64,000 nucleotides of DNA. It comes from Eledone cirrhosa (Eukaryota). The stretch's first letter is position 1. Every line of letters begins with the position of its first letter. The stretch lies in the NCBI GenBank assembly GCA_964016885.1, contig OZ024743.1, forward strand, positions 201,748,001 to 201,812,000, given 5' to 3'. The notes under the pieces were generated by a model. That model was not told the origin of the DNA. It saw only the letters and a list, made by a program, of their open reading frames with translations, and ran no database searches. Shown piece after piece: positions 3,438-54,331 of this stretch. A program made the translations under genes and the position numbers.

Positions 3438-3498
<61 letters not shown>

Positions 3499-3501
<3 letters not shown>

Positions 3502-3840
3502 ATAATATTAATAAATGGAAACTATATTTATAAAATCCATATTTATTCTATTATATATATTTCAAGGGTACCAAAACTTTGGTACGCTCTCATCAGATAA
3601 AATACAAAGTTTGTTTAATAAATATTGACATATCCAGGAACGAGATCTTAACGGTTGAAGTTTTACCTGGATAGTAAAACTTGAACCGTTAAGATCTCGT
3701 TCCTGGTTATGTCAATAGTTATAAAACAAACTTTGTATTTTATCTGATGAGAGCGTACCAAAGTTTTGGAACCGTTGAAATATATATAATAGAATAAATA
3801 TGGTTTTATAAATATAGTTTCCATTTATTAATAATATTGA
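3499..3840. mobile_element. About 340-bp fold-back element with a hammerhead motif in each arm, embedded in (TA)n
   Basis: 3499-3666 is the near reverse complement of 3673-3840. HHR at 3736-3796 (+) and 3544-3604 (-). Confidence 0.85.
3736..3796 (+). ncRNA. Type I hammerhead ribozyme motif
   Basis: TATTTTAT-CTGATGA-gagcgtaccaaagttttggaaccgtt-GAAA-tatata-TA-ATAGAATA, with 8-bp helix I. Confidence 0.75.
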
Positions 3841-3931
3841 TATTATACTCCAGAAAACCTGTCGAGCACTTCAAATCAACTATAAATATATATATATTTG
3901 TTGAATTACCAACAAATTGAATATCCCTTTG

Positions 3932-4038
<107 letters not shown>

Positions 4039-7704: not shown

Positions 7705-10700
7705 AGACTCACAGCAGCAACACCACCAACACCATCACCACCCACACTAGCACCACCATCACCACCGGCGACAACCCCACCGCCAACAACAACAACACCT
7801 TCAACACCACCACCACAAGCACCAACATCGCAAACACAACAACAAAGCACACACACCCAGCAACAACGACAAGAAAATAGCAGAACAACACCCCACCCCA
7901 CCCCCAGAAAAACAAATGCACGGCAATAAATACACACAACAAGAAACTACTGACTTACATAATTGAACACACATACATTTCACAGCACGACTACATAATA
8001 CTAGCACCAATCAAAACGCCAACGAACATAAGACTGCTAAAAATAGCACAGAAACAATACGCAAACATTAAAACGAAATTCCCCAACGCAGTTGGTGATT
8101 TCAGAGACCTAGGAGGGACTCTCAACCGGAGAGTATATTCGGAAATACTCACAGAAGAGCCGACGACCAGCCGAAGGGACGATTCAACGGTCAATTCACC
8201 AGAAGATCAAGTGAAAAGGGATGGAAAAACCATCCTTCCTCTACGAAAAGTACGGTAAGTGGTCTTTCCCATCTTTTCCACTCTATTTTAAACATGACCT
8301 CACTCAGAATAGGCAGCATAAATGAGCGTGGCTTGGGGTCGTCATGGAAGCAGGGTCACCTGCTCAACGACCTCAGGTCACTAAACATAGATGTAGTGGC
8401 CATCAGCGAGACCAGAATCTCCGAAGCACGGGCCTTCGCACCGATCTTCGGCGGCTACGATGTGTACGCATCTCCCAGCCGTCCTGGATCGGGGGGAGGA
8501 GTTGCTGTGCTTTTTCGGATAGGTTTGGATCTCGCCATACGGGCCATCTTCCTGGACCCAGAGGGTAAGTTGGCGGTGCTAGACGTGACCAGCGGAGACA
8601 GGCAAGCTTTCAGGCTAGTGGCCGTCTATGCCCCGACAGGCGCAGGGCGGCCTGATTTCTTCCGGCGCCTGGAGACCTTTCTTGGAACGTCCCGCTCTTT
8701 AGTGTTAGTGGGCGACTGGAACGGGATCTTAGATGCACGCTGGGGCAGTGTGAGATTAGCGGATAGGGTGGGAAGGTGCAAGAGCCTCACCAACCTGCTC
8801 AGGCGTTTTGAACTGTCTGACAGCTACCGATTGGATTTCCCGAATGTGCCAATGTGGACTTGGACAAATCGCATAGGCTCATCCAGATCATATCTAGATA
8901 GAGTATTTTATAGGGAAATAGATAGGTTTAGCATAGGCTGTCCACAATTCAAGATTGTCAGTTACACGGACCACAAATTCGTGATCTGTGTGCTTGACTT
9001 AGATAGGCTTCATAGACGAGGACCCGGCTACTGGAAGCTAAACGCGTCCTTAACAGCGCGCAAGGCCTACAGAAACCGGATTAGCGAACTAGTTAAGCGG
9101 GCGTTGACGGGAGCCATCGTCAACAACAAGTGGTGATTTGCTCTGAAAAGAGCGATTAGAATAGAATCCATTAGGTTTAGTAAGGCTTTAGCAATAGAGA
9201 AAAATAGAGCAGAGGGAGAACTAGTTAGAAATTTAGACGAGGCGTTAGCAAAGGCATCGCGACCGACGTGCTTGCGGCGAAATTGGCCCTTGACCAATTC
9301 TTCAATGTAAAGCACGAAGGCTGCTTTGTCAGAGCTAGGGTGCGTGCTCTCAGACACGAGAGGACGAAAGCTGTTCAATGGGCCCGAGTGGCGGAGGTGC
9401 GTCGTGGCAACAAAGCCACAATCCGGTCTTTGGTGGACCTTGACGGGCGAATGCTACACGATCCCGGGAAAATGTGTGAAGCTTTTTAGCGACACTTCGC
9501 TCAGCTGTTCGGGGGCAGCGGCGGGCCGGGTTGAGGGATGGACTTTAGTGTCTACCACGACGGACTGCCGCGGCTCTCGGCCACTGAGGCGGAGAGTTGC
9601 GAAAAGCCGATAACAGCCGCTGAAGTACGGGAGGCAATGACTGGCTGCACAAGGGGTAAATCGCCTGGTTTGGATGGTCTGCCCTATGAACTTTACGTAC
9701 AGATGCCAGACTTGTTTGGAGGCCTCTTGGCGGACGTCTACTGCAACTGGCAACAGAACGGGAGAATTCCCAGCTCTGTGAGCCGAGGAGCGGTGGCGCT
9801 GCTGAGAAAGGAACCGAACAAGGGGGATAACATAGATAATTTTAGGCCCATAACTCTGCTAAACACAGAGTTCAAGATTTTGGACAAGGTGCTAGCAAAG
9901 AGGTTGGCGCTTGTCGTTGGTGGTCTGGTGGGAGAGGCGTAGACATGCGCCATTCTCGACAGATCCATCCACGAGAACCTCCACCTCATGCGATACATCG
10001 TAGAGAGGGTAGCTAGGGAACCTGGCACGGGTGGGTCTTTGATCAATTTAGATCAGTCGAAAGCTTTCGATAGGGTCGACCATCGTTACCTAACGGCAGT
10101 CCTGAGGGCGGCTGGCTTTGGGCCCGTCTTCAGAGGCTGGATCGCTGCCATGCACAGCGACATCTGCTCTGTGGTGAGAGTGAACGGGCACCTTTCAGAA
10201 CCGTTCAACATCATGCGCTCGGCCCGCCAAGGATGTCCCCTCTCGTCCCTCTTGTACGTATTGAGTCTTGAGCCATTACTGCACAAACTGGAGACGTTGA
10301 GGGGCGTCCCGCGCGAACTAGGATGCATATGCCAACGATGTCACCGTAGTGGTGACGAACGCCAAACACATCGAGGCGATCGGCACTACACTAAGAAAAT
10401 ACGAAGCGGTGACAGGAGCAATGATCAACCAGGAAAAGTCAGTGGGCCTGCAGCTCGGCACCTGGAGAGGCAGGTCCATGCCGTCCAACAGCGTCGTCGG
10501 ACGCTGGACGGACGGACCGGTTAAATTGTTAGGGGTCTGGTTCGGTCCGGACCTCCAGACGGACAAAAACTGGGACGAGGTGACGAGCAGGGTGGCTTCT
10601 CTCAGCCAGAAATGGGCGGAGAGGGAGCTATCCCTGAAAGGTCGAGCGGAGGTGGCTAACGCATACATCGCGTCTGTCATCTGCTACCGCCTGACCGTCG

Positions 10701-11943
10701 TACCCTGTCCTAAGCCTCGCCTGACTGCGCTGGAGCGTTTGCTCTTTCGTTTTTTGTGGAAGGGACGCGCTCCGATGGTCCGGCGGTCCATCTGTTGTCA
10801 ACACCCGCTACGTGGAGGGCTGGGCATGCCGTGGCTGATGATGCGCAGGCACGCGTTCAGGCTACGACATCTCCACCTCTTCCTCGACGGTGATCAGGTG
10901 TGGTCGCCGTTTGCTAGACACGTATTTCCCCAGCTCGTTTCCTTGACGGAGCTGCAGTCCTGGGTCAAGCTAAGACCAAGATGGAGCGCCTGGAGACTGG
11001 AATGTCTTCAGGCGTTCACAGCCCTCGACCATACAGGCAATGTGATCGGTGGAAACTCCACCTCGGCGTTCTATAGAGGATTAGTGGAGGGGAAGAGCGA
11101 CGACGTACTTGGGGAAACTCTAGGCGTCGACGAAAATCAACTAGCCAATCTCTTCGGAAGAACTTTCGGGCCGGGGCCTATGGACAACTTCCAGAAATCT
11201 CTGGCCTGGCAGTGTTACCGAGGAGCCTTGCCAGTTCAGGATAAACTCTACAGGCATGAAGGTGCCGTCAGCCGGGCATGCCCGAGATTCGCGCAGGGCG
11301 ACGAAACCATCCTGCACGCACTCGTCCAGTGTCCTAGCATTGCTGACTTGTGGATTTATGTCGAACACCTGCTGTCGCGTGTAGGACGGATCCGGCTATC
11401 ATCTGAGTCCATCGTGAGGATTGCCCCGCCCTCCTCCTTTAGCCGGGAAGGGCAGTAAGTTTTTATCTGTCTGGTGGCCATGTCGAAAGAGATAGTATGG
11501 TGGACACGTTTGAAAGGGCTGAAGACGAGCACTTACCTCTTCGGTGATGCCCTGATTGACTTTTTCAAATTTCATTTGAAAAGGAAAATCAGAGTAGAGA
11601 GGGAAGTGCTCTGTTCCCAGCATTTTGTTGAAAGATGGGTGAGAGAAGCAAGAATGGCCCGAGTGAATGGGCTTACTCTGAGTATATATCTGTAAATTAA
11701 AGGTGGAAAACTGGGAGAGGGCACTTGCCTTGGTGGTCAGGGTCACTGTGGCCTATTACTGGGCTTTCTCCACAAATGTCCCTCCGAAGTCTCCCCCCTA
11801 TTGGGGTATTTTTCATTGTTATTTTTTGTTACATCCTCTGTTTTTGTTTTTTACACGCAGAAATGCCCATTTGTTCCGCCCTGTATTGTCCTGCACTGTC
11901 CTTAATGTCTACTTTATGTAAACCCTTGTGGTTAATAAAGAAA
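7705..11943 (+). mobile_element. Tx1/L1-type non-LTR retrotransposon, 5'-truncated and inactivated
   Basis: ORF1 3' remnant (Thr/Pro/Gln-rich, open frame 7881-8258 ending LPLRKVR*), then ORF2, T-rich 3' UTR and AATAAA at about 11934. 5' boundary approximate. Confidence 0.85.
8294..11695 (+). pseudogene. ORF2: APE endonuclease + reverse transcriptase + C-terminal zinc-knuckle (zf-RVT-like), several stops and frameshifts
   Basis: SINERGL, AISET, VYAP, GDWN, SYLDR, TDHK (APE). KSPGLDG, FRPITLLN, DQSKAFDRV, RQGCPLS (RT). GGLG and CPR..DETILHALVQC at the C terminus. Confidence 0.92.
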
Positions 11944-12097: not shown

Positions 12098-12476
12098 GTA
12101 TTACTATTATTATTACTATGATTATTATTACTATATACATATATACATATATATATATATATATGCGTAGAAATATCCATTATCCCCAGCACACAACTGA
12201 TGAAGGAACATTTTTTCCCGTTCGTGCTTTGCTCTTATTTATAAGTACACCTTATCCAGCAACTACACAACCCCTGTTTCTTCTTATATATATATATATA
12301 TATATAACGGCGATGTATTAGTTATTAATTCTGGCAATATTAATACACAAATATGACCCTCCCCAAGTATAACAACCTATATATATATATATATATATAT
12401 GTATATAGTATTAATAATCATAGTAATAATAATAGTAATACTACTACTAATAATAATAATAATAATAATAATTATT

Positions 12477-13544
12477 AGGTACAGTGCGGGAATCCTGAGA
12501 TGGAATGTTGCTGAACAAAAAGAAATGGATAGGAAGACTAGGAAGCTATTGACTATCTACAACATGTTCCACAAGAGGAGTGATGTCGATAGACTCTACC
12601 TAAGGAGATCTGAGGGTGGAAGAGGTCTTATCAGCATAGAGGACTGTGTTCAGATGGAGAAAAACAACCTATACAAATACGTGACCTATAGTAAGGAGCC
12701 AATGCTCAGAGCTGTACTGAAGGAGGGGACAGTAGGCCAGGGGATACCCAAGGAGGAAATAACATCAAGGAGGAAGAGCAGCCTTAAGGGAAAATCCCTT
12801 CATAGTACCTTCTTTGAGAAAACTGAATTTAGAGATCCACAGACATGGAACTGGTTGAGAAGAGGAGACCTCAAAAAGGCTACAGAAGGAATGCTAATGG
12901 CTGCGCAGGAGCAGGCCCTCAAAACGAAGTGGTTGAAGCACCATATCTACAAGGAGGAGGCTAGCCCACTGTGCAGGATCTGTGGAGAGAGAGAGGAGAC
13001 TGTGGCTCACATTGTGTCCGAGTGTAAACACCTAGCCCAGACCCACTATAAGGGCTGGAGACACGATGTGATGGGCAGGGTGATCCACTGGCACCTATGC
13101 AAAGTAAACAATCTACCACATTCTGAGAAATGGTATGAGCATAGGCCAGAGGCGGTGATGGAGAACAGTCAGGTGAAGGTGCTGTGGGATTTTAGGATAC
13201 AGACGGACAAAAAACTGGAACACAATAGACCTGACCTGGTGGTTGTGGACAAAGAAAAAAGATCGTGCCTGATTGTGGATGTGGCCTGCCCGTTCGACAC
13301 GAGAGTGCAAGAGAAGGAGAGGGAGAAAATTAACCGATACCAGGACCTAAAGTGGGAGGTGAAAAGGATTTGGAACTGCCATGAAGTCAAAGTGATCCCG
13401 ATTGTCATAGGCGCACTGGGGACTATCTCCAAAGGTTTCCAGGGATGGTTAAAGAAAATCGGCCCCTTCACGCTTTTTGGAACGCTTCAAAAGGCATGCT
13501 TGCTTGGAACGGCAAGAACCCTCCGATACGTCCTGAATATCTGA
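12477..13544 (+). CDS. C-terminal part of R4/Dong ORF: RT thumb, CCHC zinc knuckle, restriction-like endonuclease
   Basis: RLYLRRSEGGRGL, CRICGEREETVAHIVSEC, RHD, RPDLVVVD...IVDVACPFD, KEREKINRY. Uninterrupted. The ORF-track start at 12399 is microsatellite-derived. Confidence 0.9.
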   Translation, partial: RYSAGILRWNVAEQKEMDRKTRKLLTIYNMFHKRSDVDRLYLRRSEGGRGLISIEDCVQMEKNNLYKYVTYSKEPMLRAVLKEGTVGQGIPKEEITSRRKSSLKGKSLHSTFFEKTEFRDPQTWNWLRRGDLKKATEGMLMAAQEQALKTKWLKHHIYKEEASPLCRICGEREETVAHIVSECKHLAQTHYKGWRHDVMGRVIHWHLCKVNNLPHSEKWYEHRPEAVMENSQVKVLWDFRIQTDKKLEHNRPDLVVVDKEKRSCLIVDVACPFDTRVQEKEREKINRYQDLKWEVKRIWNCHEVKVIPIVIGALGTISKGFQGWLKKIGPFTLFGTLQKACLLGTARTLRYVLNI

Positions 13545-13677: not shown

Positions 13678-14871
13678 TTTCTATATATATATATATAGTA
13701 ATAATAATAAATTTGAAGACTAAAATCCAAAGAGGGCTCGATAAGTATAAATATGTATCAAATATATAAGAACCGTAGAGCAAATATTTATTAAAATAAC
13801 AGATTAAAGTTTAAGCAAAGAATCGCTGCTTTCATCCTTAACGGGATCTTCTGAAGCTAACAAAGTCAATCTGTGAACGCAGAAATGAATATTTCAAAAA
13901 ACGTTGCAACCGGAGGAAAACAGGAAGACGATACTTTCGTTTGTGGAAACGTTCCCTGGCAAAGAACGGGAATAAACGAATATAATACGTCATTATTTGG
14001 AGCGGTGAAAAACAATTACACGCAAAGACAAAACGACGTTTATGGTATAAAAGAAGTCGTAGACTAATATTCTATTAGGTGGTTCATAATGACGTTCTTT
14101 GCAATGAACGGAAAAAACGAAGTGGTGCGGGAGAACAATTGCACGCAAAGACAAAACCACGTAAATGGTATAATTGAAGTCGGAGACTAAAATTCTAACT
14201 AGGAAACCGAATGATTCTTGGCTTCAGAGTTAAGTGTAAAGTACATAAAATACAGAGGTAATTGAAATTAAATAAATACATACACGCATCCATATACGTA
14301 CATACACAAGCATACGCGAAAACACTCGCCATAGGTATACAAATACACGCACGTACACAAAAAAACCCCAAACCCCCCCAAAACCTCACGCACATACAGA
14401 ACCCACGCAACGCCTGTACCCGCACGCATACGAATGTATACACCAAATACACATAAAAATATATATAAAAAAAAATATATATATATGTGTGTGTGTGAGC
14501 GTGTATACATATAATTAAATAAAGGTATATAAATAAATAAATACGTATATAACAAGCGCACACACATACCTACATGTAAATACACATATGTTCGGAGACG
14601 TACGTCAACCAAAACACAAAATACACATACACACACACCCTACTTTAATCTGTTATTTTAATAAATGAATATATATTTATATATATATTTATCAAAATAA
14701 CAGATTAAAGTTTAAGCAAAGAATCGCTGCTTTCACCCTTAACTGGATCTTCTGAAACTAACAAAGTCAATCTGTAAACGCAGAACTGGATATTTCAAAA
14801 ACGTTGCAACCGGAGGAAGACAGGAAGACGATACTTTGGTTCGTGGAAACGTTCGCTGGCTAAGAACGGGA

Positions 14872-15828
14872 ACGAAGTCCGATTTAGGTAGACTTAGTAA
14901 GACGATTCTTGATAGAATTATACCTGAAATTAGAAGTTTGGCCCCTCTTGCACTGTGGAACAATTCCTTCGCGGTGATTGATTGGTTCAACGGCATATGT
15001 AACAAGGAACATTGCCGTTTTATCCAATTCGACATCAACAATTACTACTCCTCCATCACTTTACCACTTTTCCTTAGAGCTATCAATTTCGCTAAAACAC
15101 TCACAGTGGTTAAGGATTTTGAAGTTGATGTCATCCTCAATGCCCGAAAGTCGGTGATTAATTTCGACGACTCTATTTGGATTAAAAAATCCAATAGTAC
15201 CCCATTCGACGTGAGTATGGTCGCCAGTGATTCTGCGGAGGTTTCTGATCTTATCGGCCTTTTCCTTCTTTTCTCTATCAAGGACGAATTCCCCAACACG
15301 GGCGGTGGTTTGTACCGTGACGATGGTCTTTTGACCATGACTAAGTGCGGACCTCGTACTTGCGGCAGGTTCAGAAAAGAACTCACAGCCTTCTTTAAAG
15401 GCTTCAACCTCTCTATACAGGTTGAGGCCAATCTCTCGGTCGTTAATTACCTCGACGTTACCCTCAACTTATTGAATGGGTTGTATTACCCGTGTAGAAA
15501 GCCGAATGATACGCTTAATTACATAAGTAAGCATTCCAACCGTCCTGACAGCATAACCAAGAACCTGGTAAGAAACGTTTCGTTGAGGCTTTCCCGTCTT
15601 TCCACCAACGAGCGTATTTTCAACGACCATTCCACTTATTACAATGAAGCTCTTGCTCGGAGTGGATTTGTCGATAAGGTAGCATATACAGAGTACGAAT
15701 ATAGACCGAGAAGAAATAGATCCCGTCGCATTTGTTGGTATAATCCACCATATAATATGGAAGTGGCCACACCATTAGCTAAGATCCTTCTTTCCCCTAT
15801 TACGAATGATTTTCCCCCTACAGACAAA
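14872..15828 (+). pseudogene. Penelope-like reverse transcriptase fragment
   Basis: KSDLGRLSKTIL, FIQFDINNYYSSI, FDVSMVASDSAEVSDLIG, LYRDDGL, NYLDVTLNL, ICWYNPPY. Homologous to 35533-37116. Confidence 0.88.
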
Positions 15829-15895
15829 TCCTGTCTTCCTCCGGTTGCAACGTTTTTTGAAATATCCAGTTCTGCGTTTACAGATTGACTTTGTT

Positions 15896-15946
15896 AGTTT
15901 CAGAAGATCCCGTTAAGGGTGAAAGCAGCGATTCTTTGCTTAAACT
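15896..15946 (+). ncRNA. Variant type I hammerhead motif (CAGAAGA core) in PLE pLTR
   Basis: AGTTT-CAGAAGA-tCCCgttaaGGGt-GAAA-GCAg...tTGC-TT-AAACT. All three helices form. Related copies at about 13808, 14709, 16292 (-) and 24173 (+). Confidence 0.6.
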
Positions 15947-16053
15947 TTAATCTGTTATTTTAATAAATATTTGCTCTACGGTTCTTATATATTTGATATA
16001 TATTTATCCTTATCGAGCCCTCTTTGGATTTTAGTCTTCAAATTTATTATTAT

Positions 16054-16230: not shown

Positions 16231-16280
<50 letters not shown>

Positions 16281-16420
16281 TAACAGATTAAAGTTTAAGC
16301 AAAGAATCGCTGCTTTCACCCTTAACGCGATCTTCTGAAACTAAAAAAATAAATCTGTGAAAGCAGAAGTAAATATTTCGAAAAACGTTACACTATATAT
16401 ATTTATATATATATATATAT

Positions 16421-18314
16421 GTGAATATAGACACAGAATATTCGAAAATATTCCGTATGTTTATAATAAACATTTTGAAGACCTAATCGCTATAGAATAG
16501 AATACGTCACGTATTACAATTAGATTCTCGATAAAAGCAAGGGAAGTAAGTCTACGCGTTTCATTCTTGTTAGAATTCATCAGGACTACATATCCAGTGC
16601 TTTTATCGAGAATGACACAGCTAGAGACTTATAGAATACTTAGCTGTGTACAGGAACTGGTTTGAAAGAGCGGTTGCCGGTCCGGCAGAAATTAGAAATT
16701 GGAATAAATGCTCTGAAATAGCGATATATATGTGAATATAGACACAGAATATTCGAAAATATTCCGTATGTTTATAATAAACATTTTGAAGACCTAATCG
16801 CTATAGAATAGAATACGTCACGTATTACAATTAGATTCTCGATAAAAGCAAGGGAAGTAAGTCTACGCGTTTCATTCTTGTTAGAATTCATCAGGACTAC
16901 ATATCCAGTGCTTTTATCGAGAATGACACAGCTAGAGACTTATAGAATACTTAGCTGTGTACAGGAACTGGTTTGAAAGAGCGGTTGCCGGTCCGGCAGA
17001 AATTAGAAATTGGAATAAATGCTCTGAAATAGCGATATATATGTGAATATAGACACAGAATATTCGAAAATATTCCGTATGTTTATAATAAACATTTTGA
17101 AGACCTAATCGCTATAGAATAGAATACGTCACGTATTACAATTAGATTCTCGATAAAAGCAAGGGAAGTAAGTCTACGCGTTTCATTCTTGTTAGAATTC
17201 ATCAGGACTACATATCCAGTGCTTTTATCGAGAATGACACAGCTAGAGACTTATAGAATACTTAGCTGTGTACAGGAACTGGTTTGAAAGAGCGGTTGCC
17301 GGTCCGGCAGAAATTAGAAATTGGAATAAATGCTCTGAAATAGCGATATATATGTGAATATAGACACAGAATATTCGAAAATATTCCGTATGTTTATAAT
17401 AAACATTTTGAAGACCTAATCGCTATAGAATAGAATACGTCACGTATTACAATTAGATTCTCGATAAAAGCAAGGGAAGTAAGTCTACGCGTTTCATTCT
17501 TGTTAGAATTCATCAGGACTACATATCCAGTGCTTTTATCGAGAATGACACAGCTAGAGACTTATAGAATACTTAGCTGTGTACAGGAACTGGTTTGAAA
17601 GAGCGGTTGCCGGTCCGGCAGAAATTAGAAATTGGAATAAATGCTCTGAAATAGCGATATATATGTGAATATAGACACAGAATATTCGAAAATATTCCGT
17701 ATGTTTATAATAAACATTTTGAAGACCTAATCGCTATAGAATAGAATACGTCACGTATTACAATTAGATTCTCGATAAAAGCAAGGGAAGTAAGTCTACG
17801 CGTTTCATTCTTGTTAGAATTCATCAGGACTACATATCCAGTGCTTTTATCGAGAATGACACAGCTAGAGACTTATAGAATACTTAGCTGTGTACAGGAA
17901 CTGGTTTGAAAGAGCGGTTGCCGGTCCGGCAGAAATTAGAAATTGGAATAAATGCTCTGAAATAGCGATATATATGTGAATATAGACACAGAATATTCGA
18001 AAATATTCCGTATGTTTATAATAAACATTTTGAAGACCTAATCGCTATAGAATAGAATACGTCACGTATTACAATTAGATTCTCGATAAAAGCAAGGGAA
18101 GTAAGTCTACGCGTTTCATTCTTGTTAGAATTCATCAGGACTACATATCCAGTGCTTTTATCGAGAATGACACAGCTAGAGACTTATAGAATACTTAGCT
18201 GTGTACAGGAACTGGTTTGAAAGAGCGGTTGCCGGTCCGGCAGAAATTAGAAATTGGAATAAATGCTCTGAAATAGCGATATATATGTGAATATAGACAC
18301 AGAATATTCGAAAA
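16421..18314 (-). repeat. 311-bp tandem repeat, left arm (6 full copies + partial); each unit has a minus-strand hammerhead ribozyme; retrozyme-like
   Basis: Unit starts GTGAATATAGACACAG at 16421, 16732, 17043, 17354, 17665, 17976, 18287 (period 311). TCATCAG (reverse complement of CTGATGA) at 16577+311n. No ORF of 60 aa or more. Confidence 0.95.
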
Positions 18315-18327
18315 TGTACACAGAATA

Positions 18328-20151
18328 TTCCTGTACACAGCTAAGTATTCTATAAGTCTCTAGCTGTGTCATTCTCGATAAAAGCACTGGATATGTAGTC
18401 CTGATGAATTCTAACAAGAATGAAACGCGTAGACTTACTTCCCTTGCTTTTATCGAGAATCTAATTGTAATACGTGACGTATTCTATTCTATAGCGATTA
18501 GGTCTTCAAAATGTTTATTATAAACATACGGAATATTTTCGAATATTCTGTGTCTATATTCACATATATATCGCTATTTCAGAGCATTTATTCCAATTTC
18601 TAATTTCTGCCGGACCGGCAACCGCTCTTTCAAACCAGTTCCTGTACACAGCTAAGTATTCTATAAGTCTCTAGCTGTGTCATTCTCGATAAAAGCACTG
18701 GATATGTAGTCCTGATGAATTCTAACAAGAATGAAACGCGTAGACTTACTTCCCTTGCTTTTATCGAGAATCTAATTGTAATACGTGACGTATTCTATTC
18801 TATAGCGATTAGGTCTTCAAAATGTTTATTATAAACATACGGAATATTTTCGAATATTCTGTGTCTATATTCACATATATATCGCTATTTCAGAGCATTT
18901 ATTCCAATTTCTAATTTCTGCCGGACCGGCAACCGCTCTTTCAAACCAGTTCCTGTACACAGCTAAGTATTCTATAAGTCTCTAGCTGTGTCATTCTCGA
19001 TAAAAGCACTGGATATGTAGTCCTGATGAATTCTAACAAGAATGAAACGCGTAGACTTACTTCCCTTGCTTTTATCGAGAATCTAATTGTAATACGTGAC
19101 GTATTCTATTCTATAGCGATTAGGTCTTCAAAATGTTTATTATAAACATACGGAATATTTTCGAATATTCTGTGTCTATATTCACATATATATCGCTATT
19201 TCAGAGCATTTATTCCAATTTCTAATTTCTGCCGGACCGGCAACCGCTCCTTCAAACCAGTTCCTGTACACAGCTAAGTATTCTATAAGTCTCTAGCTGT
19301 GTCATTCTCGATAAAAGCACTGGATATGTAGTCCTGATGAATTCTAACAAGAATGAAACGCGTAGACTTACTTCCCTTGCTTTTATCGAGAATCTAATTG
19401 TAATACGTGACGTATTCTATTCTATAGCGATTAGGTCTTCAAAATGTTTATTATAAACATACGGAATATTTTCGAATATTCTGTGTCTATATTCACATAT
19501 ATATCGCTATTTCAGAGCATTTATTCCAATTTCTAATTTCTGCCGGACCGGCAACCGCTCTTTCAAACCAGTTCCTGTACACAGCTAAGTATTCTATAAG
19601 TCTCTAGCTGTGTCATTCTCGATAAAAGCACTGGATATGTAGTCCTGATGAATTCTAACAAGAATGAAACGCGTAGACTTACTTCCCTTGCTTTTATCGA
19701 GAATCTAATTGTAATACGTGACGTATTCTATTCTATAGCGATTAGGTCTTCAAAATGTTTATTATAAACATACGGAATATTTTCGAATATTCTGTGTCTA
19801 TATTCACATATATATCGCTATTTCAGAGCATTTATTCCAATTTCTAATTTCTGCCGGACCGGCAACCGCTCTTTCAAACCAGTTCCTGTACACAGCTAAG
19901 TATTCTATAAGTCTCTAGCTGTGTCATTCTCGATAAAAGCACTGGATATGTAGTCCTGATGAATTCTAACAAGAATGAAACGCGTAGACTTACTTCCCTT
20001 GCTTTTATCGAGAATCTAATTGTAATACGTGACGTATTCTATTCTATAGCGATTAGGTCTTCAAAATGTTTATTATAAACATACGGAATATTTTCGAATA
20101 TTCTGTGTCTATATTCACATATATATCGCTATTTCAGAGCATTTATTCCAA
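18328..20151 (+). repeat. 311-bp tandem repeat, right arm (about 5.9 copies), inverted relative to left arm; each unit has a plus-strand hammerhead ribozyme
   Basis: Reverse complement of the left-arm unit. CTGATGA at 18401, 18712, 19023, 19334, 19645, 19956. One substitution noticed (T>C at 19250). Confidence 0.95.
18395..18438 (+). ncRNA. Minimal type I hammerhead ribozyme (representative of 12 copies)
   Basis: gtAGTC-CTGATGA-ATTC taacaa GAAT-GAAA-CGCG-TA-GACT tac. Helix I AGTC/GACT, helix II ATTC/GAAT, palindromic helix III (ACGCGT), GUA cleavage triplet. Confidence 0.9.
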
Positions 20152-20286
20152 TATATATATATATATATACACGCACTATACATACATATATAGATACACA
20201 GACAGCGTCATAATGACGTAATGCAGACAGCCAGACATACAGACAGATATTATAAGGGCGCGACGTTATATCTATGTATCTATCTA

Positions 20287-23714: not shown

Positions 23715-28757
<5,043 letters not shown>

Positions 28758-31605: not shown

Positions 31606-31922
31606 TATTATATATATATATATATATTATTATTATGTAATAAACAACATAAGGCAATTATTCCATTTACCAGTGGTTTCTTAAAAGCAAAAGGTTTTGC
31701 TTTCAATCCTCAGAATGAAAAATCCTGGTTTGTTTATTGAATATGGATTCTAAAAACAAAAATGCAATCTATATGAAAGTGAGGCTGGAAAAGGGAGAAG
31801 GAAAGGAAAAATAAAATAAAATAAAACTACACATGCAAACACACACAAAAAAAACATAAAAGCATACTTACACACACACACATATATACACATATAATTT
31901 GCACGCACACATATATACACAT

Positions 31923-31979
<57 letters not shown>

Positions 31980-32036
31980 GAGCGTACACCTACACACACA
32001 TACACATATATGCACACATATACACATACATATATT

Positions 32037-32084
<48 letters not shown>

Positions 32085-32113
32085 CATATATATACACATG
32101 TACATATCCATAC

Positions 32114-32152
<39 letters not shown>

Positions 32153-32610
32153 CATACATATACACATATACAGACATATACATACACACACACACACACA
32201 CACGCACACATGTGTGTGTACAAGCCTACACATACACACACACATATATATACACACACATATACATACATTCACAAAAACATACAACGTACATACATAC
32301 ACATACATGAATGCACTCCACTACATATTAACACACGCAAATAAATATAAGAAAAAATATATATAAATAATATTAACAAATATTTGACAGCGATACATGC
32401 CCCAGCTAACAGGACAGACACGCGTGGTAAGTAATACACACATAAGCACATATACATACGTTCGAAATAGTAAACACATACACACACTCTCACACATAAA
32501 TATACATATGCAAATACATAAACACGTACATACACATACATACGCAAACACGTACACGTATACAATATAAACACACACATGTATATGTAATTATATACAC
32601 ACACACAAAC

Positions 32611-32679
<69 letters not shown>

Positions 32680-32932
32680 CAAAAATATAAAAATATAAAC
32701 GCAAACACACATATACATACATAGCTAAACAATTATACACATGCAAATACGTATATATCAAAAGAACGCACAACCAAATACAAACACACACATATATATA
32801 CACACACACACACCCCCACACACAAACCCACACATACATAAAAATAAATAAAAACACACGCAACATATACATACATACACATACATATACATATATACAT
32901 ACATACATATACACATACACATATACACACAC

Positions 32933-32980
<48 letters not shown>

Positions 32981-34345
32981 ACGTACACATACACACATGC
33001 ATACACATACACACACACATATACATGTGTGTATGTGTAAAGCTCAGTATTAGATAAGACAAATGAACCTTACATAAACGTATATATAGTAGTAAAGTAA
33101 TAAAGCCATACAAGGCAATTAATCCATTCACCAGAGGTTTCTTAAAAGCAAAAAAAGTTTCCTTCAATCTTCAGAATGAAAAAAAGCCCTGGTTTATCCA
33201 CATATACATACATATACACACACAAATATACAAATATATACACACATACAGACACGCACACACACACATATATATATATATATACACATACATATATATA
33301 CACATATATATATATATATATATATATACAGACATATATACATACACATATATACACATACATACATATACATACATACATACACATATATATACATACA
33401 CAAACATATACGTACACATATACATATATACACACACAAATACATACACATACACATAGGTATGTGAAGGGCAAAACAAAAAGAATATATGGGGGAGGGC
33501 TAAGAGGAGGTAAAAATATAAGGGGAGGTCAGGGAGAAAAAATTTTTTAAAAATACAAGAGTACAGAAGGTAGAAGCAGCAAAATAAAAGCCGTAGCAAA
33601 AGTAAAGAGCAGAGAAGGAGTTCAAGGCGGTTGATTTATCGTAGGAGTGTCAATCCAGTTACAGATCAGATGCGATTTCAGATGAGGACAGCATCTGAAG
33701 ATCTCAGTCTTAGAGTTAAGGCAAGCGGAAGTGTCTCTCAAGTTTAGCAAAATCCTATACTTTTCTGTGGTACACAAAGAACAATTCTTTGTGCCCCTTT
33801 GGTACTCCCTCGAATGGTCTAATGTAGACCAATCAATAGAGTACGGGATATTACTATCCTTGAGATCCCATACCTTACTTGCGAGGGCCGTTGATGTTCG
33901 TTTATCTGAGTGTTTAAAAGAAGCGACATGTGAGTAAAATCTGGTTTTAAACCTGTCCTGGGTCATACCGACTCGTCATATCGCTCGCTTCTGGCTGTCT
34001 GGTTGTTGATAGCTGGCGTTATTTTAGCCTCATAAACGACAGATTTTGTGTTACATTTACCCTGCAATGGGCATTCATCCGGCTTCCTGCAACTGCATCC
34101 TGGATTTATCCTCGTACGGTTTGAACTGGTGATTTTGGATTTCATGGATGGACAACAAGAGTAGCTGATCTTAACTACATTCCTATTAAAAATCTTATAA
34201 TATCTATGAATAGGAGGAAAATGTTTGTCTAATAGTTCAAGGAATTTCCTTCCTACATTAGTTTTGACATTTAGAGAGAAGGGGGGTGTGAACCAAATAA
34301 TCTTCCTTTTCCTGTTATTATGGTTAGTTTTAGTGTATATATATG

Positions 34346-34388
<43 letters not shown>

Positions 34389-34453
34389 ATGTATGAATAT
34401 ATGTATGTGTATATGTGTGCATATATGTGTATGTGTGTGTAGGTGTACGCTCT

Positions 34454-34511
<58 letters not shown>

Positions 34512-34713
34512 ATGTGTATATATGTGTGCGTGCAAATTATATGTGTATATATGTGTGTGTGTGTAAGTATGCTTTTATGTTTTTTTTGTGTGTGTTTGCA
34601 TGTGTAGTTTTATTTTATTTTATTTTTCCTTTCCTTCTCCCTTTTCCAGCCTCACTTTCATATAGATTGCATTTTTGTTTTTAGAATCCATATTCAATAA
34701 ACAAACCAGGATT

Positions 34714-34773
34714 TTTCATTCTGAGGATTGAAAGCAAAACCTTTTGCTTTTAAGAAACCACTGGTAAATGGAA
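34714..34773 (+). ncRNA. Type I hammerhead ribozyme in PLE pLTR (copies at 39009-39068 + and 31661-31720 -)
   Basis: TTTCATT-CTGAGGA-TTGAAAGCAAAA cc TTTTGCTTTTAA-GAAA-CC act GG-TA-AATGGAA. Confidence 0.9.
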
Positions 34774-34992
34774 TAATTGCCTTATGTTGTTTATTACATA
34801 ATAATAATAATTAAGCTCTGTTGCTTACATAGAGCACTCTTTTTTCCTGGACTTTTCCGATGGAATTACTTCATTTATACAGCTCCAACCGGGATTGATC
34901 GCAGCATATTCGATATTACATATACGATTGGCACTTTCCAGCCCGATTAGTTGAGCACTCTACAGTTTTCAGGAATTTAACCAACATACACC

Positions 34993-37116
34993 ATGGACCT
35001 TTATGATTTGGATTATTCTATCAAAAACATACCCACTCCTTCCAATACAACATACACCAAAATCCTCATTGATAAAATCGAGCAAGTCGTTAAAAGAATG
35101 AGATGGAAGGCAATGGTTTACGATGGACTATTCAGTGCTGATACTAAAGATAATTTTGACATTAAATCCCGTAAATATCCACCTAGAATTAAAGACATGG
35201 CCAACTTCGAATTAGACCTCGTTAATCTAATTAGTGATATCAAATTCGTAAGTACAATAATAATTTTCAAACTAAACTTTCTCACGATATCTCTAATTTT
35301 AGAAATTCTACAAACACTTTCGTTCTTTCTGATAAAACCAAAAACCTCTTTGAAGTTAATAGTAATTTGTATAACCAACTTTTAACTAATAGTATTACCA
35401 ATAAATATCAATTAACTAATAATAATAGCTACAATACTATCAATAAAGAAGCTAAAGAACTAGCTAGTTCTTTACAAATAGATAACCGGATTAGCTAAGC
35501 GTAAAGCATATATTACCCTTAAAGACCATAAATTGGACTTTACTAATCGACCTAGTTGTAGACTGATTAACCCGGCTAAATCCGAGGTTGGCCTTGCTAG
35601 TAAGAAAATCTTAAGAAAAATAATTCTCCAAATTAGAACTAACACTGACCTTTCACAGTGGCTAAATACTTCCTCTGTTATTTCTTGGTTCAATAATATA
35701 CAAGGTAAAAATAAGTGTAGATTTACGCAATTTGATATTGTCGATTTTTACCCTTCTATTACCGTTTCCTTATTAACTAAAGCCTTAGATTTTGCAAGAC
35801 CCTTCATTAATATCTCCAAATTAGAAGAGGACATTATCTTTCATGCCAGAAAAACTTTACTTTTTACTAATGATAATATTTGGGTTAAAAAGTCAAACCC
35901 TGAAAACTCTTTCGATGTTGCAATGGGTTCTTATGACAGTGCGGATGTGTGCGACTTAGTAGGATTATTCCTTCTCCACACACTCCAAGAGAAATTTCCG
36001 TCCCATAATATCGGTTTATACCGTGATGACGGATTAGCTGTTTCTCATACCACCAATGGCCATAATCTTGATAAATTCCGTAAAGATTTAATTAGTACCT
36101 TTGCTAATCTTAACCTTAAAATTACTATAGATACGAACCTTACTAATGCTAACTTTCTTGATATTAATCTTGATCTACTTACTGCCTCTTTTAAACCCTA
36201 TCATAAACCTAATGAAAATCTTAGGTATATACACAAAGAGTCTTGCCATCCCCCTATAGTTTTTAATAATCTTATTCCTAACATTAGCCGTAGGATTTCT
36301 ACTTTATCTTCGTCTATAGACATTTTTAATAAAGCCGCCCCTTATTATAATAAAGCCCTTAAGAACAGCGGTTTTACAGAAAATATTTCTTATTTACCTA
36401 CTCCTCCCCCTAAAACTAACCATAATAACAGGAAAAGGAAGATTATTTGGTTCACACCCCCCTTCTCTCTAAATGTCAAAACTAATGTAGGAAGGAAATT
36501 CCTTGAACTATTAGACAAACATTTTCCTCCTATTCATAGATATTATAAGATTTTTAATAGGAATGTAGTTAAGATCAGCTACTCTTGTTGTCCATCCATG
36601 AAATCCAAAATCACCAGTTCAAACCGTACGAGGATAAATCCAGGATGCAGTTGCAGGAAGCCGGATGAATGCCCATTGCAGGGTAAATGTAACAAAAAAT
36701 CTGTCGTTTATGAGGCTAAAATAACGCCAGTTATCAACAACCAGACAGCCAGAAGCGAGCGATATGTCGGTATGACCCAGGACAGGTTTAAAACCAGATT
36801 TTACTCACATGTCGCTTCTTTTAAACACTCAGATAAACGAACATCAACGGCCCTCGCAAGTAAGGTATGGGATCTCAAGGATAGTAATATCCCGTACTCT
36901 ATTGATTGGTCTATATTAGACCATTCGAGGGAGTACCAAAGGGGCAGAAAGAATTGTTCTTTGTGTACCACAGAAAAGTATAGGATTTTGCTAAACTTGA
37001 GAGACACTGCCGCTTGCCTTAACTCTAAGACTGAGATCTTCAGATGCTGTCCTCATCTGAAATCGCATCTGATCTGTAACTGGATTGACACTCCTACGAT
37101 AAATCAACCGCCTTGA
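34993..37116 (+). CDS. PLE RT + GIY-YIG endonuclease; frameshifts near 35255 and 35485; 35533-37116 open
   Basis: YSIKNIP..KRMRWKA; RLINPAKS, FDIVDFYPSI, MGSYDSADVCDLVG, LYRDDGL, IIWFTPPF, CSC..CPLQGKC..VVYEA..YVGMT..FKTR..H, CSLCTTEK, LNSKTE. Confidence 0.92.
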
Positions 37117-37560
37117 ACTCCTTCTCTGCTCTTTACTTTTGCTACGGCTTTTATTTTGCTGCTTCTACCTTCTGTACTCTTGTATTTTTAAAAATTTTTT
37201 TCTCCCTGACCTCCCCTTATATTTTTACCTCCTCTTAGCCCTCCCCCATATATTCTTTTTGTTTTGCCCTTCACATACCTATGTGTATGTGTATGTATTT
37301 GTGTGTGTATATATGTATATGTGTACGTATATGTTTGTGTATGTATATATATGTGTATGTATGTATGTATATGTATGTATGTATGTGTATATATGTGTAT
37401 GTATATATGTCTGTATATATATATATATATATATATATGTGTATATATATGTATGTGTATATATATATATATATGTGTGTGTGTGCGTGTCTGTATGTGT
37501 GTATATATTTGTATATTTGTGTGTGTATATGTATGTATATGTGGATAAACCAGGGCTTTT

Positions 37561-37619
37561 TTTCATTCTGAAGATTGAAGGAAACTTTTTTTGCTTTTAA
37601 GAAACCTCTGGTGAATGGA
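37561..37619 (+). ncRNA. Second, diverged pLTR hammerhead (copy at 33123-33181 -)
   Basis: TTTCATT-CTGAAGA-stem II-GAAA-CC tct GG-TG-AATGGA. The GUG triplet violates the NUH rule. Confidence 0.75.
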
Positions 37620-37770
37620 TTAATTGCCTTGTATGGCTTTATTACTTTACTACTATATATACGTTTATGTAAGGTTCATTTGTCTTATCTAATACTGAGC
37701 TTTACACATACACACATGTATATGTGTGTGTGTATGTGTATGCATGTGTGTATGTGTACGTGTATGTGTG

Positions 37771-37801
<31 letters not shown>

Positions 37802-38059
37802 GTGTGTGTATATGTGTATGTGTATATGTATGTATGTATATATGTATATGTATGTGTATGTATGTATATGTTGCGTGTGTTTTTATTTATTTTTATGTAT
37901 GTGTGGGTTTGTGTGTGGGGGTGTGTGTGTGTGTATATATATGTGTGTGTGTTTGTATTTGGTTGTGCGTTCTTTTGATATATACGTATTTGCATGTGTA
38001 TAATTGTTTAGCTATGTATGTATATGTGTGTTTGCGTTTATATTTTTATATTTTTGTAT

Positions 38060-38121
<62 letters not shown>

Positions 38122-38580
38122 GTTTGTGTGTGTGTATATAATTACATATACATGTGTGTGTTTATATTGTATACGTGTACGTGTTTGCGTATGTATGTGT
38201 ATGTACGTGTTTATGTATTTGTATATGTATATTTATGTGTGAGAGTGTGTGTATGTGTTTACTATTTCGAACGTATGTATATGTGCTTATGTGTGTATTA
38301 CTTACCACGCGTGTCTGTCCTGTTAGCTGGGGCATGTATCGCTGTCAAATATTTGTTAATATTATTTATATATATTTTTTTCTTATATTTATTTGCGTGT
38401 GTTAATATGTAGTGGAGTGCATTCATGTATGTGTATGTATGTACGTTGTATGTTTGTGTGAATGTATGTATATGTGTGTGTATATATATGTGTGTGTGTA
38501 TGTGTAGGCTTGTACACACACATGTGTGCGTGTGTGTGTGTGTGTGTGTATGTATATGTCTGTATATGTGTATATGTATG

Positions 38581-38612
<32 letters not shown>

Positions 38613-38646
38613 TATATGTATGGATACGTACATGTGTATATATATG

Positions 38647-38697
<51 letters not shown>

Positions 38698-38757
38698 ATG
38701 AATATATGTATGTGTATATGTGTGCATATATGTGTATGTGTGTGTAGGTGTACGCTC

Positions 38758-38806
<49 letters not shown>

Positions 38807-39430
38807 ATGTGTATATATGTGTGCGTGCAAATTATATGTGTATATATGTGTGTGTGTGTAAGTATGCTTTTATGTTTTTTTTGTGTGTGTTTGCATGTGT
38901 AGTTTTATTTTATTTTATTTTTCCTTTCCTTCTCCCTTTTCCAGCCTCACTTTCATATAGATTGCATTTTTGTTTTTAGAATCCATATTCAATAAACAAA
39001 CCAGGATTTTTCATTCTGAGGATTGAAAGCAAAACCTTTTGCTTTTAAGAAACCACTGGTAAATGGAATAATTGCCTTATGTTGTTTATTACATAATAAT
39101 AATAATTAAGCTCTGTTGCTTACATAGAGCACGCTTTTTTCCTGGACTTTTCCGATGGAATTACTTCATTTACACATATATATATATATATATATAGAAT
39201 AAGGAAAAGCGAAGTAGTTTTGGCTGAGAGGGTGAACTGACTAAGCGAATTTCGTTGAAATCTGCGGTGGCTAATGGTCAACTTCTTTCGGACATGCGCT
39301 TGCGCAGGCCGGTGGGGGTGAATAGGTACTCACAAGGGAGCGGATGAAAAACCCCAAAACACGCAATTCATCTGTTCCCATGTCGATCCAATTTGGAATG
39401 CCTCGGAAACATAACCTTATTATGTAACAA

Positions 39431-52823: not shown

Positions 52824-53243
52824 CCATAGCTTATAGAATATTGTCAAGTATTGTTTTCCTATGAGTTTTTCTCTCTATTCTCCCTTGTTATTTATATTTA
52901 TTACACATTTTCTGTTCATCATCTTTCATTAAGTTTTATTAAAATATCTTAAAACATACGTGGTTCGCACATGGTGCATAAATAAATGACTTCATATATA
53001 GCTCACGCACGCATGCACATGCACGCAACACCCGGAAATGTTCTGTTCATACAGGGATACAATCAGAAACTCACGTACAAATACAAAATATATATATACA
53101 CCCAAATATGTATGTATATACTAGAGTAAGTATGTATGAATATATAAATAAATATATATACACATACATACGCACATACATACATATACATATATATATA
53201 TATGTATATATGTGTGTGTATATAAAGTTCAAGTACATCTTCC

Positions 53244-53306
<63 letters not shown>

Positions 53307-54331
53307 GAACTCGCTGCAGAGGCAAGGCGTCGAGGCGCAATACGTTCAACTGCTCAGGGAGGCGGGTTTCGGATGCACCACCGACATAGCTCTGCTGTCA
53401 TCATCCGTACGAGTGCCAGTTGAGAAGGGAGTGAAGCAAGGAGATACGATCTTTCCAAAACTTTTCACCGCGTGTCTCGAGCAGATCATCAGAGGCATTG
53501 ACTGGCAAGGTGGTGTCAACATCAACGGCGAGATACTTACCCACCTCCGTTTCGCTGATGACATCGTACTCATCGCTGAAACACGGATCAGCTTCAGACC
53601 ATGCTGACGGAGCTCGACATCAAAAGCTCTGCAATAGGCTTCAAGATGAACCGCATGAAAACGAAGTTCATGCGGTCCGACAACGTACCAACAGGTCGAA
53701 TGGTGGTTGGCGGTTATGAAATAGAAGAGGTGGAGGAATACGTCTACCTGGGACAGGAAGTGAACATGCGCCGAGACATTGAGAGGGAGATCTCGCTGAG
53801 AGTAAGGGCCGGATGGAAGGCGTTCAACGGCATAAGTGATGTGCTCAAGGGGAGGGTAGACAAGACCACCCGCGCCAACCTCTTCAATAGCACAGTTTTA
53901 CCTGCAATGTTATATGGCAGTGAAACTTGGACTACAACGAAGAGAGAAGAGCAGAGGCTGGTAACGGCTCAAAGAGCCATGGAGAGATCAATGCTAGGAA
54001 TCTCGTTGAGAGAGCACATCGGGAGCGAAGTCATCAGACAGAAGTCCGGCGTGAGAGACGTCATCACGGAATATATGCGCAGCAAGTTGAGATGGGCTGG
54101 ACACGTCGCCCTGTACACTGATAATCGGTGGACCCGCGCAGTTGCCCAATGGTACCCGCGCGAGCAGAAACGACCACTCGGAAGGCCTCCACGAGGATGG
54201 AGTTACGATTTTAAGAATACGATTGGGAATACATAGATGAGGAGAGAACGATCCAGGGAGGAATGGACGGCATGCTGTCACCAGCGGCGCTGAATGGACG
54301 CCCGACAGACTGGTCGGTCAAGGTAATCAAG

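What the first reader, a model, noticed from the sequence alone, without database searches (positions are those of the whole stretch)
18336..18560. Retrozyme monomer is highly self-complementary around the ribozyme
Seen: ATTCTCGATAAAAGCA (18371-18386) pairs perfectly over 16 bp with TGCTTTTATCGAGAAT (18445-18460), extending helix I across the cleavage site. There are also an ACAGCTA...TAGCTGT hairpin and a GAATATT..AATATTC palindrome. Inference: the clamp would hold the 5' and 3' ends of a cleaved monomer together for ligation and give a compact viroid-like circle.
Basis: partly seen in the sequence, partly recalled or inferred. Interest (0 to 1): 0.7.

Follow-up and report, generated by a model that had tools for sequence, protein, structure and literature searches.

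The report
Conserved helix clamp in hammerhead retrozyme
A perfect 16-base-pair stem flanks a hammerhead-ribozyme motif in a young, very abundant 311-base mobile repeat of a known kind (an animal retrozyme) and is kept with different letters in three sister families, so it likely folds the self-cutting RNA and would close one unit into a ring only when two neighbouring ribozymes pair up.

Summary
The 16-bp pairing is exact and maximal. It is the distal part of helix I of a type I hammerhead in a 311-nt non-LTR retrozyme with at least 13,732 cores genome-wide. Three sister families keep the stem with different sequence; against family B all 8 changed pairs are double-compensated. Variants fixed along arrays spare clamp and core (0 of 29, against 15 of 88 sporadic; p=0.01). 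The circle folds at z -4.7, but scrambling one clamp arm leaves z -1.7, so 'viroid-like' overstates a branched, 60%-paired fold. It closes a monomer on itself only in a double-hammerhead fold built on the palindromic helix III, which is the predicted minimum-energy fold. Arrays are head-to-head in (TA)n with Penelope-type ends (82 of 82 complete two-armed insertions); the scan found this architecture before on other DNA of this genome. No RNA, cleavage or circle was shown. New member of a known kind.

The parts
18371..18386 (+). Clamp 5' arm (distal helix I)
   Evidence: Exact complement of 18445-18460; covaries across families A-D
18445..18460 (+). Clamp 3' arm (distal helix I), unit positions 14-29
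18389..18442 (+). Proximal helix I with internal loops (18389-18391/18440-18442; 18395-18400/18432-18438), enclosing the core
   Evidence: Predicted fold; two proximal pairs covary
18401..18431 (+). Type I hammerhead core: CUGAUGA 18401-18407, helix II 18408-18421, GAAA, predicted cleavage after GUA at 18431
   Evidence: Sequence; Rfam Hammerhead_HH9 17.8 bits, below its gathering score of 52, E 0.11; C3-G8 becomes U3-A8 in family B and 4 of 4 helix II pairs covary
18425..18430 (+). Self-complementary helix III (ACGCGU), too short to close within one ribozyme; predicted to pair between two neighbouring ribozymes
   Evidence: palindromic with other letters in families B and C
18432..18742 (+). 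One 311-nt monomer, cleavage site to cleavage site
   Evidence: 10 full units in the window, one substitution among them
18335..18369 (+). ACACAGCTA/TAGCTGTGT 9-bp hairpin; family A only
   Evidence: absent from the A+B consensus structure
18528..18551 (+).
   Evidence: Kept with other letters and loops in families B, C and D
18562..18597 (+). About 35-nt 'tail' between the two fixed 3' end points of insertions (unit 131-140 and about 166)
   Evidence: 82 of 82 complete two-armed insertions; best-conserved of the stretches compared between A and B, 31 of 36 identical
16413..18315 (-). Left arm, 6.1 units, 3' end at unit 140 fused to (TA)n
18316..18327 (.). 12-nt junction insert between the two 5'-truncated arms; resembles the adjoining unit sequence
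18328..20152 (+). Right arm, 5.9 units, 3' end at unit 166 fused to (TA)n

Best explanation
The 16-bp stem is the conserved distal helix I of a type I hammerhead motif in a 311-nt animal retrozyme, and it likely both nucleates the ribozyme fold and, in a predicted double-hammerhead fold of the tandem transcript, would pair each monomer's 5' end with its own 3' region so that the excised unit leaves as a nicked ring ready for ligation. Shown: the stem, its covariation, the palindromic helix III, the tandem head-to-head arrays and their fixed ends in (TA)n. Predicted by folding: two neighbouring ribozymes pair through the helix III palindromes while the clamp arms swap partners; after both cuts only 6 bp hold the monomer to its neighbours, while about 25 bp hold it shut. 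Inferred from known retrozymes: transcription, self-cleavage, ligation by an RtcB-type ligase, and poor re-cleavage of the circle because helix III cannot close in a monomer. Inferred from insertion anatomy: a Penelope-like reverse transcriptase/endonuclease cuts (TA)n, primes from both DNA ends at two sites 35 nt apart on one RNA, likely the circle, and copies it round repeatedly, giving back-to-back arrays.
For: Covariation: 14 clamp pairs are 94.4% paired in 26 copies, 6 with double changes; slid controls give 39-52%. In a four-family table A/B have 8 of 8 changed pairs double-compensated, A/D 5 of 8, C/D 6 of 9. The clamp arms are only 8 of 16 identical between A and B. Selection during spread: 0 of 29 array-fixed variants disrupt clamp or core against 15 of 88 sporadic ones (Fisher p=0.010); both fixed clamp variants become G-U. 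Folding role: scrambling one arm drops proximal helix I from 0.93 to 0.10, and a compensated pair restores 0.93. Register: the unconstrained minimum-energy fold of a two-core segment is the swapped double hammerhead (-113.5; constrained double -112.4 against single -103.2). It is favoured by 4.8-6.5 kcal/mol in 5 of 5 family A haplotypes, 4.9-16.9 in 4 family B units (a fifth could not be set up) and 9.0 in family C. Helix III is palindromic with different letters in A, B and C, and two B variants change the loop while staying palindromic. Dimeric activity of such ribozymes, and RtcB circularisation, are published for other retrozymes (PMC7229834; PMC4209133). Single-unit template: 54 of 55 two-armed loci carry one haplotype in both arms, and rare variants are fixed through up to 21 units of both arms. 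5' ends do not pile up at the cleavage site (4 of 172 within 4 nt, about 5 expected). Penelope footprint: compared with PMC8557442 and PMC11167929.
Against: No RNA, cleavage or circle was observed for this family. The local clamp (a 90-nt hairpin, predicted -26 kcal/mol of binding) would form first during transcription and may be a kinetic trap. Non-palindromic loop controls still favour the swapped fold by 2.1-2.7 kcal/mol, so only about 4 kcal/mol comes from the palindrome, and multiloop energies are rough. The double changes mostly reflect a few family splits; on 'pairs with a change on both sides' 46 of 500 shuffles matched the observed 6. The clamp-only variant test is borderline (0 of 29 against 10 of 88, p=0.051), and sporadic variants may include assembly errors. 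Nine of 12 family B helix III variants carry 1-2 mismatches. Four loci are mosaics that one monomer circle cannot explain alone (L058, L067, L079, L167). In the anole Penelope-like element, ribozyme cleavage was not needed for insertion in vitro. In a Xenopus test 8 of 9 predicted retrozyme dimers did not cleave. No autonomous partner sharing the tail sequence was found.
Confidence: 0.5

Rival explanations
1. The clamp only stabilises a monomeric extended hammerhead for cleavage, as the internally looped helix I extension does in newt satellite 2. Circularisation then needs later strand exchange or proteins and does not depend on a double-hammerhead fold.
For: The local hairpin forms first. 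The clamp is predicted to be needed for the core fold. A review states that newt monomers can cleave given helix I extensions (PMC6155905 passages). All the covariation evidence fits this equally.
Against: Helix III here is one pair plus a CGCG loop and stays palindromic across families. The swapped fold is lower in predicted energy.
Confidence: 0.3
2. Arrays are copied from uncleaved linear multimer transcripts. The clamp belongs to the RNA's general fold or to reverse-transcriptase recognition, and circles are rare or irrelevant.
For: No RNA evidence for circles. Mosaic arrays and repeated sporadic variants exist. Ribozyme mutants did not affect insertion by the anole element in vitro.
Against: Rare variants are fixed through every unit of both arms, and only 5 of 88 sporadic variants recur in a second locus. 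Arms reach 25 units or more. Fixed variants spare the catalytic core.
Confidence: 0.15
3. The inverted repeat is a chance or DNA-level feature of a satellite, or a by-product of fold-back assembly errors.
For: The sequence is AT-rich, and one junction (L051) uses the whole clamp as microhomology. The window's own junction was not bridged in the laid runs, which is inconclusive.
Against: 1 of 1000 shuffles reaches 16 bp. The stem covaries together with helix II and the C3-G8 pair. The flanks are not mirror images, and junctions differ at every locus while outer ends are fixed.
Confidence: 0.03

Closest known systems
Animal non-LTR retrozymes of coral, mussel and axolotl (Cervera and de la Pena 2020, PMC7229834)
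   Same: 150-450 bp tandem units, type I hammerhead in each, low G+C, no coding frame, predicted highly self-paired circle with a free ribozyme. Axolotl HHR_Amex1 has a one-pair helix III with a palindromic tetraloop and cleaves as a dimer; HHR_Amex2 has a U-U at the base of helix II, like the common 288T variant here.
   Different: Expression, cleavage and circles were shown there, not here. The main text does not mention inverted arrays (0 hits for 'inverted' or 'head-to-head'), and the parts read do not assign a ring-closing role to distal helix I. The supplement could not be read.
Newt satellite 2 extended and double hammerheads (Forster 1988; Pabon-Pena 1991; seen only as cited in PMC6155905 and PMC4209133)
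   Same: Type I ribozyme in a roughly 330-bp tandem repeat, palindromic weak helix III, dimeric cleavage, internally looped helix I extension.
   Different: Unrelated sequence by recall (not compared). Here the extension ends in a perfect 16-bp stem with covariation across four families.
EN+ Penelope-like elements (PMC8557442; PMC3846280; anole Poseidon PAc, PMC11167929)
   Same: Inverted 5'-truncated copy, 30-40 bp tail at one end, microsatellite or AT-rich targets, two reverse-transcription start sites downstream of a hammerhead, U3-A8 core variants.
   Different: No open reading frame (longest stop-free stretch 59 aa). Metazoan Penelope minimal hammerheads have a short helix I of 4-5 bp, unlike this long clamp. 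No sequence link to the one coding family compared.
Vertebrate non-LTR retrozymes as Penelope derivatives (Li, Clavereau, Pollet 2026, bioRxiv 10.64898/2026.07.22.740005)
   Same: Proposes Penelope-like mobilisation of tandem type I hammerhead repeats.
   Different: Rests on co-occurrence and pLTR homology and favours local satellite-like amplification; it does not analyse insertion ends or helix I in the parts read.
Avsunviroidae viroids (recalled)
   Same: Small, self-paired, hammerhead-bearing circle is predicted.
   Different: Genome-encoded, ribozyme on one strand only, ribozyme not blocked by alternative pairing, no evidence of RNA-RNA replication.

Membership tests
Type I hammerhead ribozyme | CUGANGA / GAAA / NUH core with helices I-III, helix I open | tested here: met
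   Sequence and fold; covariation of helices I and II and of C3-G8. Rfam score is below the gathering threshold.
Type I hammerhead ribozyme | Self-cleavage at the predicted site | not testable with these tools
   Needs in vitro transcription.
Type I hammerhead ribozyme | Loop II to helix I tertiary contact | not tested
   Internal loops are present in helix I; the contact was not modelled.
Animal non-LTR retrozyme | Tandem 150-450 bp units, each with a type I hammerhead | tested here: met
   311-bp units, 12 cores in the window; 13,732 exact cores in the genome, control 0.
Animal non-LTR retrozyme | Non-coding, no LTR, G+C under 50% | tested here: met
   Longest stop-free stretch 59 aa; G+C about 0.33-0.35 over the array; arrays end directly in (TA)n.
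Animal non-LTR retrozyme | Dispersed copies (mobile) | tested here: met
   1,015 exact 3'-end junctions, control 0; many contigs.
Animal non-LTR retrozyme | Stable self-paired monomer fold | tested here: met
   z -4.7; family B z -5.4; mostly due to helix I.
Animal non-LTR retrozyme | Expressed as linear and circular monomers | not testable with these tools
   No run on record as RNA was offered.
Animal non-LTR retrozyme | Target-site duplication longer than 4 bp when present | tested here: inconclusive
   Both flanks are (TA)n, so a duplication cannot be delimited.
Penelope-like element insertion | Inverted 5'-truncated copy next to a direct copy | tested here: met
   13 of 16 loci chosen by identity; 38 two-armed blocks among 43 blocks in 40 test loci.
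Penelope-like element insertion | 30-40 bp tail at one end only | tested here: met
   82 of 82 complete two-armed insertions end at unit 128-142 and 163-170; the 166 end was the selection criterion for 80 of the 96 loci.
Penelope-like element (autonomous) | ORF with reverse transcriptase and GIY-YIG endonuclease | tested here: not met
   None in the unit; none upstream of 24 variant-tail loci.
Viroid-like RNA | Ribozymes in both polarities | tested here: not met
   No core pattern on the antisense strand.

The most novel reading that the evidence does not exclude
The clamp and the palindromic helix III form a ring-closing device: the double-hammerhead fold swaps clamp partners, so cleavage releases each monomer already shut on itself and unable to re-cleave. 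A Penelope-like enzyme then primes that one circle twice, 35 nt apart, from both ends of a (TA)n cut and rolls round it. That would explain how animal retrozyme circles form, why they survive with an unblocked ribozyme, and where Penelope tails and inverted copies come from.
Probability: 0.35. Interest if true: 0.7.

Novelty: new member of a known kind. Interest (0 to 1): 0.45.

Why it matters
Self-paired retrozyme circles are known, so the stem itself is not a surprise. What this family adds is a natural mutagenesis series: four families keep the clamp in structure but not sequence, and keep the insertion start region in sequence. That separates the ribozyme module from the likely enzyme-recognition module. 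Cervera and de la Pena left open how animal retrozyme circles avoid self-cleavage and which enzyme mobilises them. A 311-nt RNA with a predicted partner-swap fold and over a thousand fresh, uniformly built insertions makes both questions testable in vitro.

Tried and rejected
(1) Reverse transcriptase stalls in the clamp. Suggested by the first 56 loci (19 of 96 5' ends in clamp windows, p=0.007), written down before the test, and not confirmed in 40 new loci (9 of 76, p=0.45). Rejected. (2) Whole-unit viroid-like rod: 60% paired, and z falls to -1.7 without the clamp. (3) ACAGCTA hairpin as a conserved element: absent from the A+B consensus. (4) RNA evidence: no RNA holder listed, which is no evidence either way; the four laid runs of unknown kind show the same common variants. 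(5) The window's own junction was not bridged in four runs; inconclusive. (6) Autonomous partner: variant-core and variant-tail patterns found only more non-coding families. The coding element at 35482-37116 shares nothing with the unit beyond TA repeats. Its Penelope-like label rests on recalled motifs: Pfam and PDB gave no match and the protein atlas did not answer. (7) Rfam at gathering thresholds finds no ribozyme in the window. (8) The first variant extraction missed units with a deletion at position 3 and was redone with a rotated query. (9) The automatic four-family alignment misplaced the family C arm, so pairs were tabulated directly from one copy per family. (10) The two original newt papers were not held.

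Full report
Observation. The two 16-mers are exact reverse complements and the stem cannot be extended. They flank a type I hammerhead motif with predicted cleavage after 18431. The motif sits in a 311-bp unit repeated 6.1 times on the minus strand (16413-18315) and 5.9 times on the plus strand (18328-20152). Rfam gives only a sub-threshold hammerhead match (17.8 bits, E 0.11). The circular monomer folds at z -4.7 (0 of 100 shuffles), and 1 of 1000 shuffles holds an inverted repeat that long. The stability is local: with one clamp arm scrambled z is -1.7 +/- 0.4, against -3.2 and -4.4 for the other two hairpins (25 scrambles each).

Family. The genome (G000, 3.0 Gb, an animal by its repeats and elements; inference) holds 13,732 exact cores and 1,015 exact junctions of unit position 166 with (TA)n, both with control 0. 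Weak matches in flanks led to sister family B (320 nt, 195 of 311 positions identical to A), and a variant-tail pattern led to C and D.

Is the clamp selected? In 26 copies (4 A, 20 B, 2 others, chosen by me from 58 distinct domains) the 14 alignable clamp pairs are 94.4% paired and 6 show double changes; slid controls give 39-52%. On the count of pairs with double changes 46 of 500 shuffles did as well, and the changes mostly trace to the A/B split. One copy per family over 16 positions gives: A/B 8 changed pairs, all double-compensated; A/C 3 of 7; A/D 5 of 8; B/C 5 of 9; B/D 2 of 5; C/D 6 of 9; C has 15 and D 14 of 16 positions paired. Helix II (4 of 4 pairs) and the C3-G8 to U3-A8 core pair covary too; the U3-A8 variant is described in Penelope ribozymes. 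Among 71 family A loci with at least 3 full units (685 units), 0 of 29 array-fixed variants disrupt clamp or core, against 15 of 88 sporadic ones (p=0.010; clamp alone 0 against 10, p=0.051). The UUCG hairpin is also kept with other letters in B, C and D. The ACAGCTA hairpin is not in the A+B consensus.

What the clamp would do. Folding predicts two roles. First, it organises the ribozyme: scrambling one arm lowers proximal helix I from 0.93 to 0.10 and helix II from 0.93 to 0.29, and compensation restores both. Second, it holds cleavage products: -26.1 against -3.9 kcal/mol. In a tandem transcript, however, the local hairpin joins the end of unit n-1 to the start of unit n. Helix III is one pair plus a CGCG loop, the type reported to cleave as a dimer. 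In the dimer fold the palindromes of two cores pair and the clamp arms swap, so unit n closes on itself. That fold is the unconstrained minimum for a two-core segment and is favoured in all 10 natural units of families A, B and C that could be evaluated (4.8-16.9 kcal/mol). Non-palindromic controls are still favoured by 2.1-2.7, and co-transcriptional folding should favour the local hairpin, so this step is a prediction. Family B's commonest helix III is a perfect 12-nt palindrome (12 loci) with two perfectly palindromic variants; 9 other variants carry mismatches.

How the arrays arise. Of 16 loci chosen by identity, 13 are head-to-head. Over 96 loci (80 chosen by the position-166 end) there are 101 blocks: 82 complete two-armed insertions, 4 two-armed but cut, 1 complex, and 14 single-strand blocks including cut ones and fragments. 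All 82 have one outer end at unit 128-142 and the other at 163-170. Inner 5' ends are scattered, with microhomology in 46, blunt joins in 18 and inserts in 22 of 86 junctions. This matches the Penelope signature of an inverted truncated copy, a 30-40 bp tail and microsatellite targets (passages of PMC8557442; PMC3846280), and the two start sites and two-strand extension of the anole enzyme (PMC11167929 main text). The start region is the best-conserved stretch compared between A and B (31 of 36), the clamp arms among the weaker ones (8 of 16 each). Both arms share a haplotype in 54 of 55 loci, with 26 haplotypes among 71 loci and rare variants fixed through whole arrays. Only 4 of 172 5' ends lie within 4 nt of the cleavage site. 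A single-unit template continuous across the cut site, most simply a circle, fits best; four mosaic loci do not fit without template switching or later exchange. A pre-stated test that copying stalls in the clamp failed. No partner element was identified.

Comparison with print. Self-paired retrozyme circles, dimeric cleavage and RtcB ligation are in PMC7229834 (parts 2-4 of 6 read; supplement not readable, and it may show comparable helix I stems). Penelope origin is argued in bioRxiv 2026.07.22.740005 (parts 1-3 of 5). The dimer fold is described in PMC4209133 (parts 1-2 of 4). Helix I extensions in newts were seen only as review passages (PMC6155905). Five searches (listings only, except the papers named) showed no paper on head-to-head retrozyme arrays with Penelope tails or on a ring-closing role for distal helix I; subscription journals are largely missing. 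This scan had already noted the two-armed architecture on other DNA of this genome, after I had reached it. A word search for the clamp and double-hammerhead reading found nothing.

Verdict. Interest 0.45.

Noticed in passing
window 31625-39172 (ORF 35482-37116 +): Coding element with Penelope-like motifs (label recalled; Pfam and PDB gave no match), minimal hammerhead-like motifs at 31713(-), 34721 and 39016, and ends in (TA)n. Many copies elsewhere are 97-99% identical with 714-aa open frames, several head-to-head. No sequence link to the retrozyme.
   Followed up: partly
window 25416-28564 (-) and 14743-15888 (+): Further reverse-transcriptase-like frames. The first has an Asn-rich stretch and a weak RVT_1 match (E 0.0016); both look Penelope-like by recalled motifs.
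   Followed up: no
window 3440-3960: Short head-to-head pair of another hammerhead-like motif (3596 -, 3744 +) between (TA)n tracts.
   Followed up: no
L106-L135, L136-L159: Sister retrozyme families B (320 nt, U3-A8 core), C (315 nt) and D; older and more diverged, many also back-to-back and sharing the tail sequence.
   Followed up: partly
L090, L091, L100; L109:1830-1950; L110: Other hammerhead-like families in this genome, some with the same palindromic helix III.
   Followed up: no
L051 junction; L146:1624-1753 (-): Junctions made through the clamp: L051 uses all 16 bp as microhomology, and in L146 the 5' arm is replaced by the reverse complement of the 3' side.
   Followed up: no
L058, L067, L079, L167: Mosaic arrays: repeated sporadic variants (7 units apart in L058; 5 of 24 units in L079) or a haplotype switch within an arm; template switching, multimer templates or later exchange.
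   Followed up: partly
unit positions 1-3 (window 18432-18434): An indel and substitutions segregate right after the cleavage site; the common form is 310 nt with an unbulged proximal helix I, the window's form has one extra base.
   Followed up: no
window 23181, 29008, 41453, 46760, 48722, 49393, 49901, 50884: Eight dispersed tRNA-like copies of similar sequence, mostly degenerate; possibly a tRNA-derived repeat.
   Followed up: no
window 15849-15970 and 16275-16390: About 120-bp inverted repeats around a (TA)n-rich stretch just left of the array; similar sequence flanks other loci, so probably a separate small element.
   Followed up: no
window 8099-11458, 12357-13544, 53152-54236: Broken LINE-like frames; the first has an Exo_endo_phos match (E 2.4e-14).
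   Followed up: no
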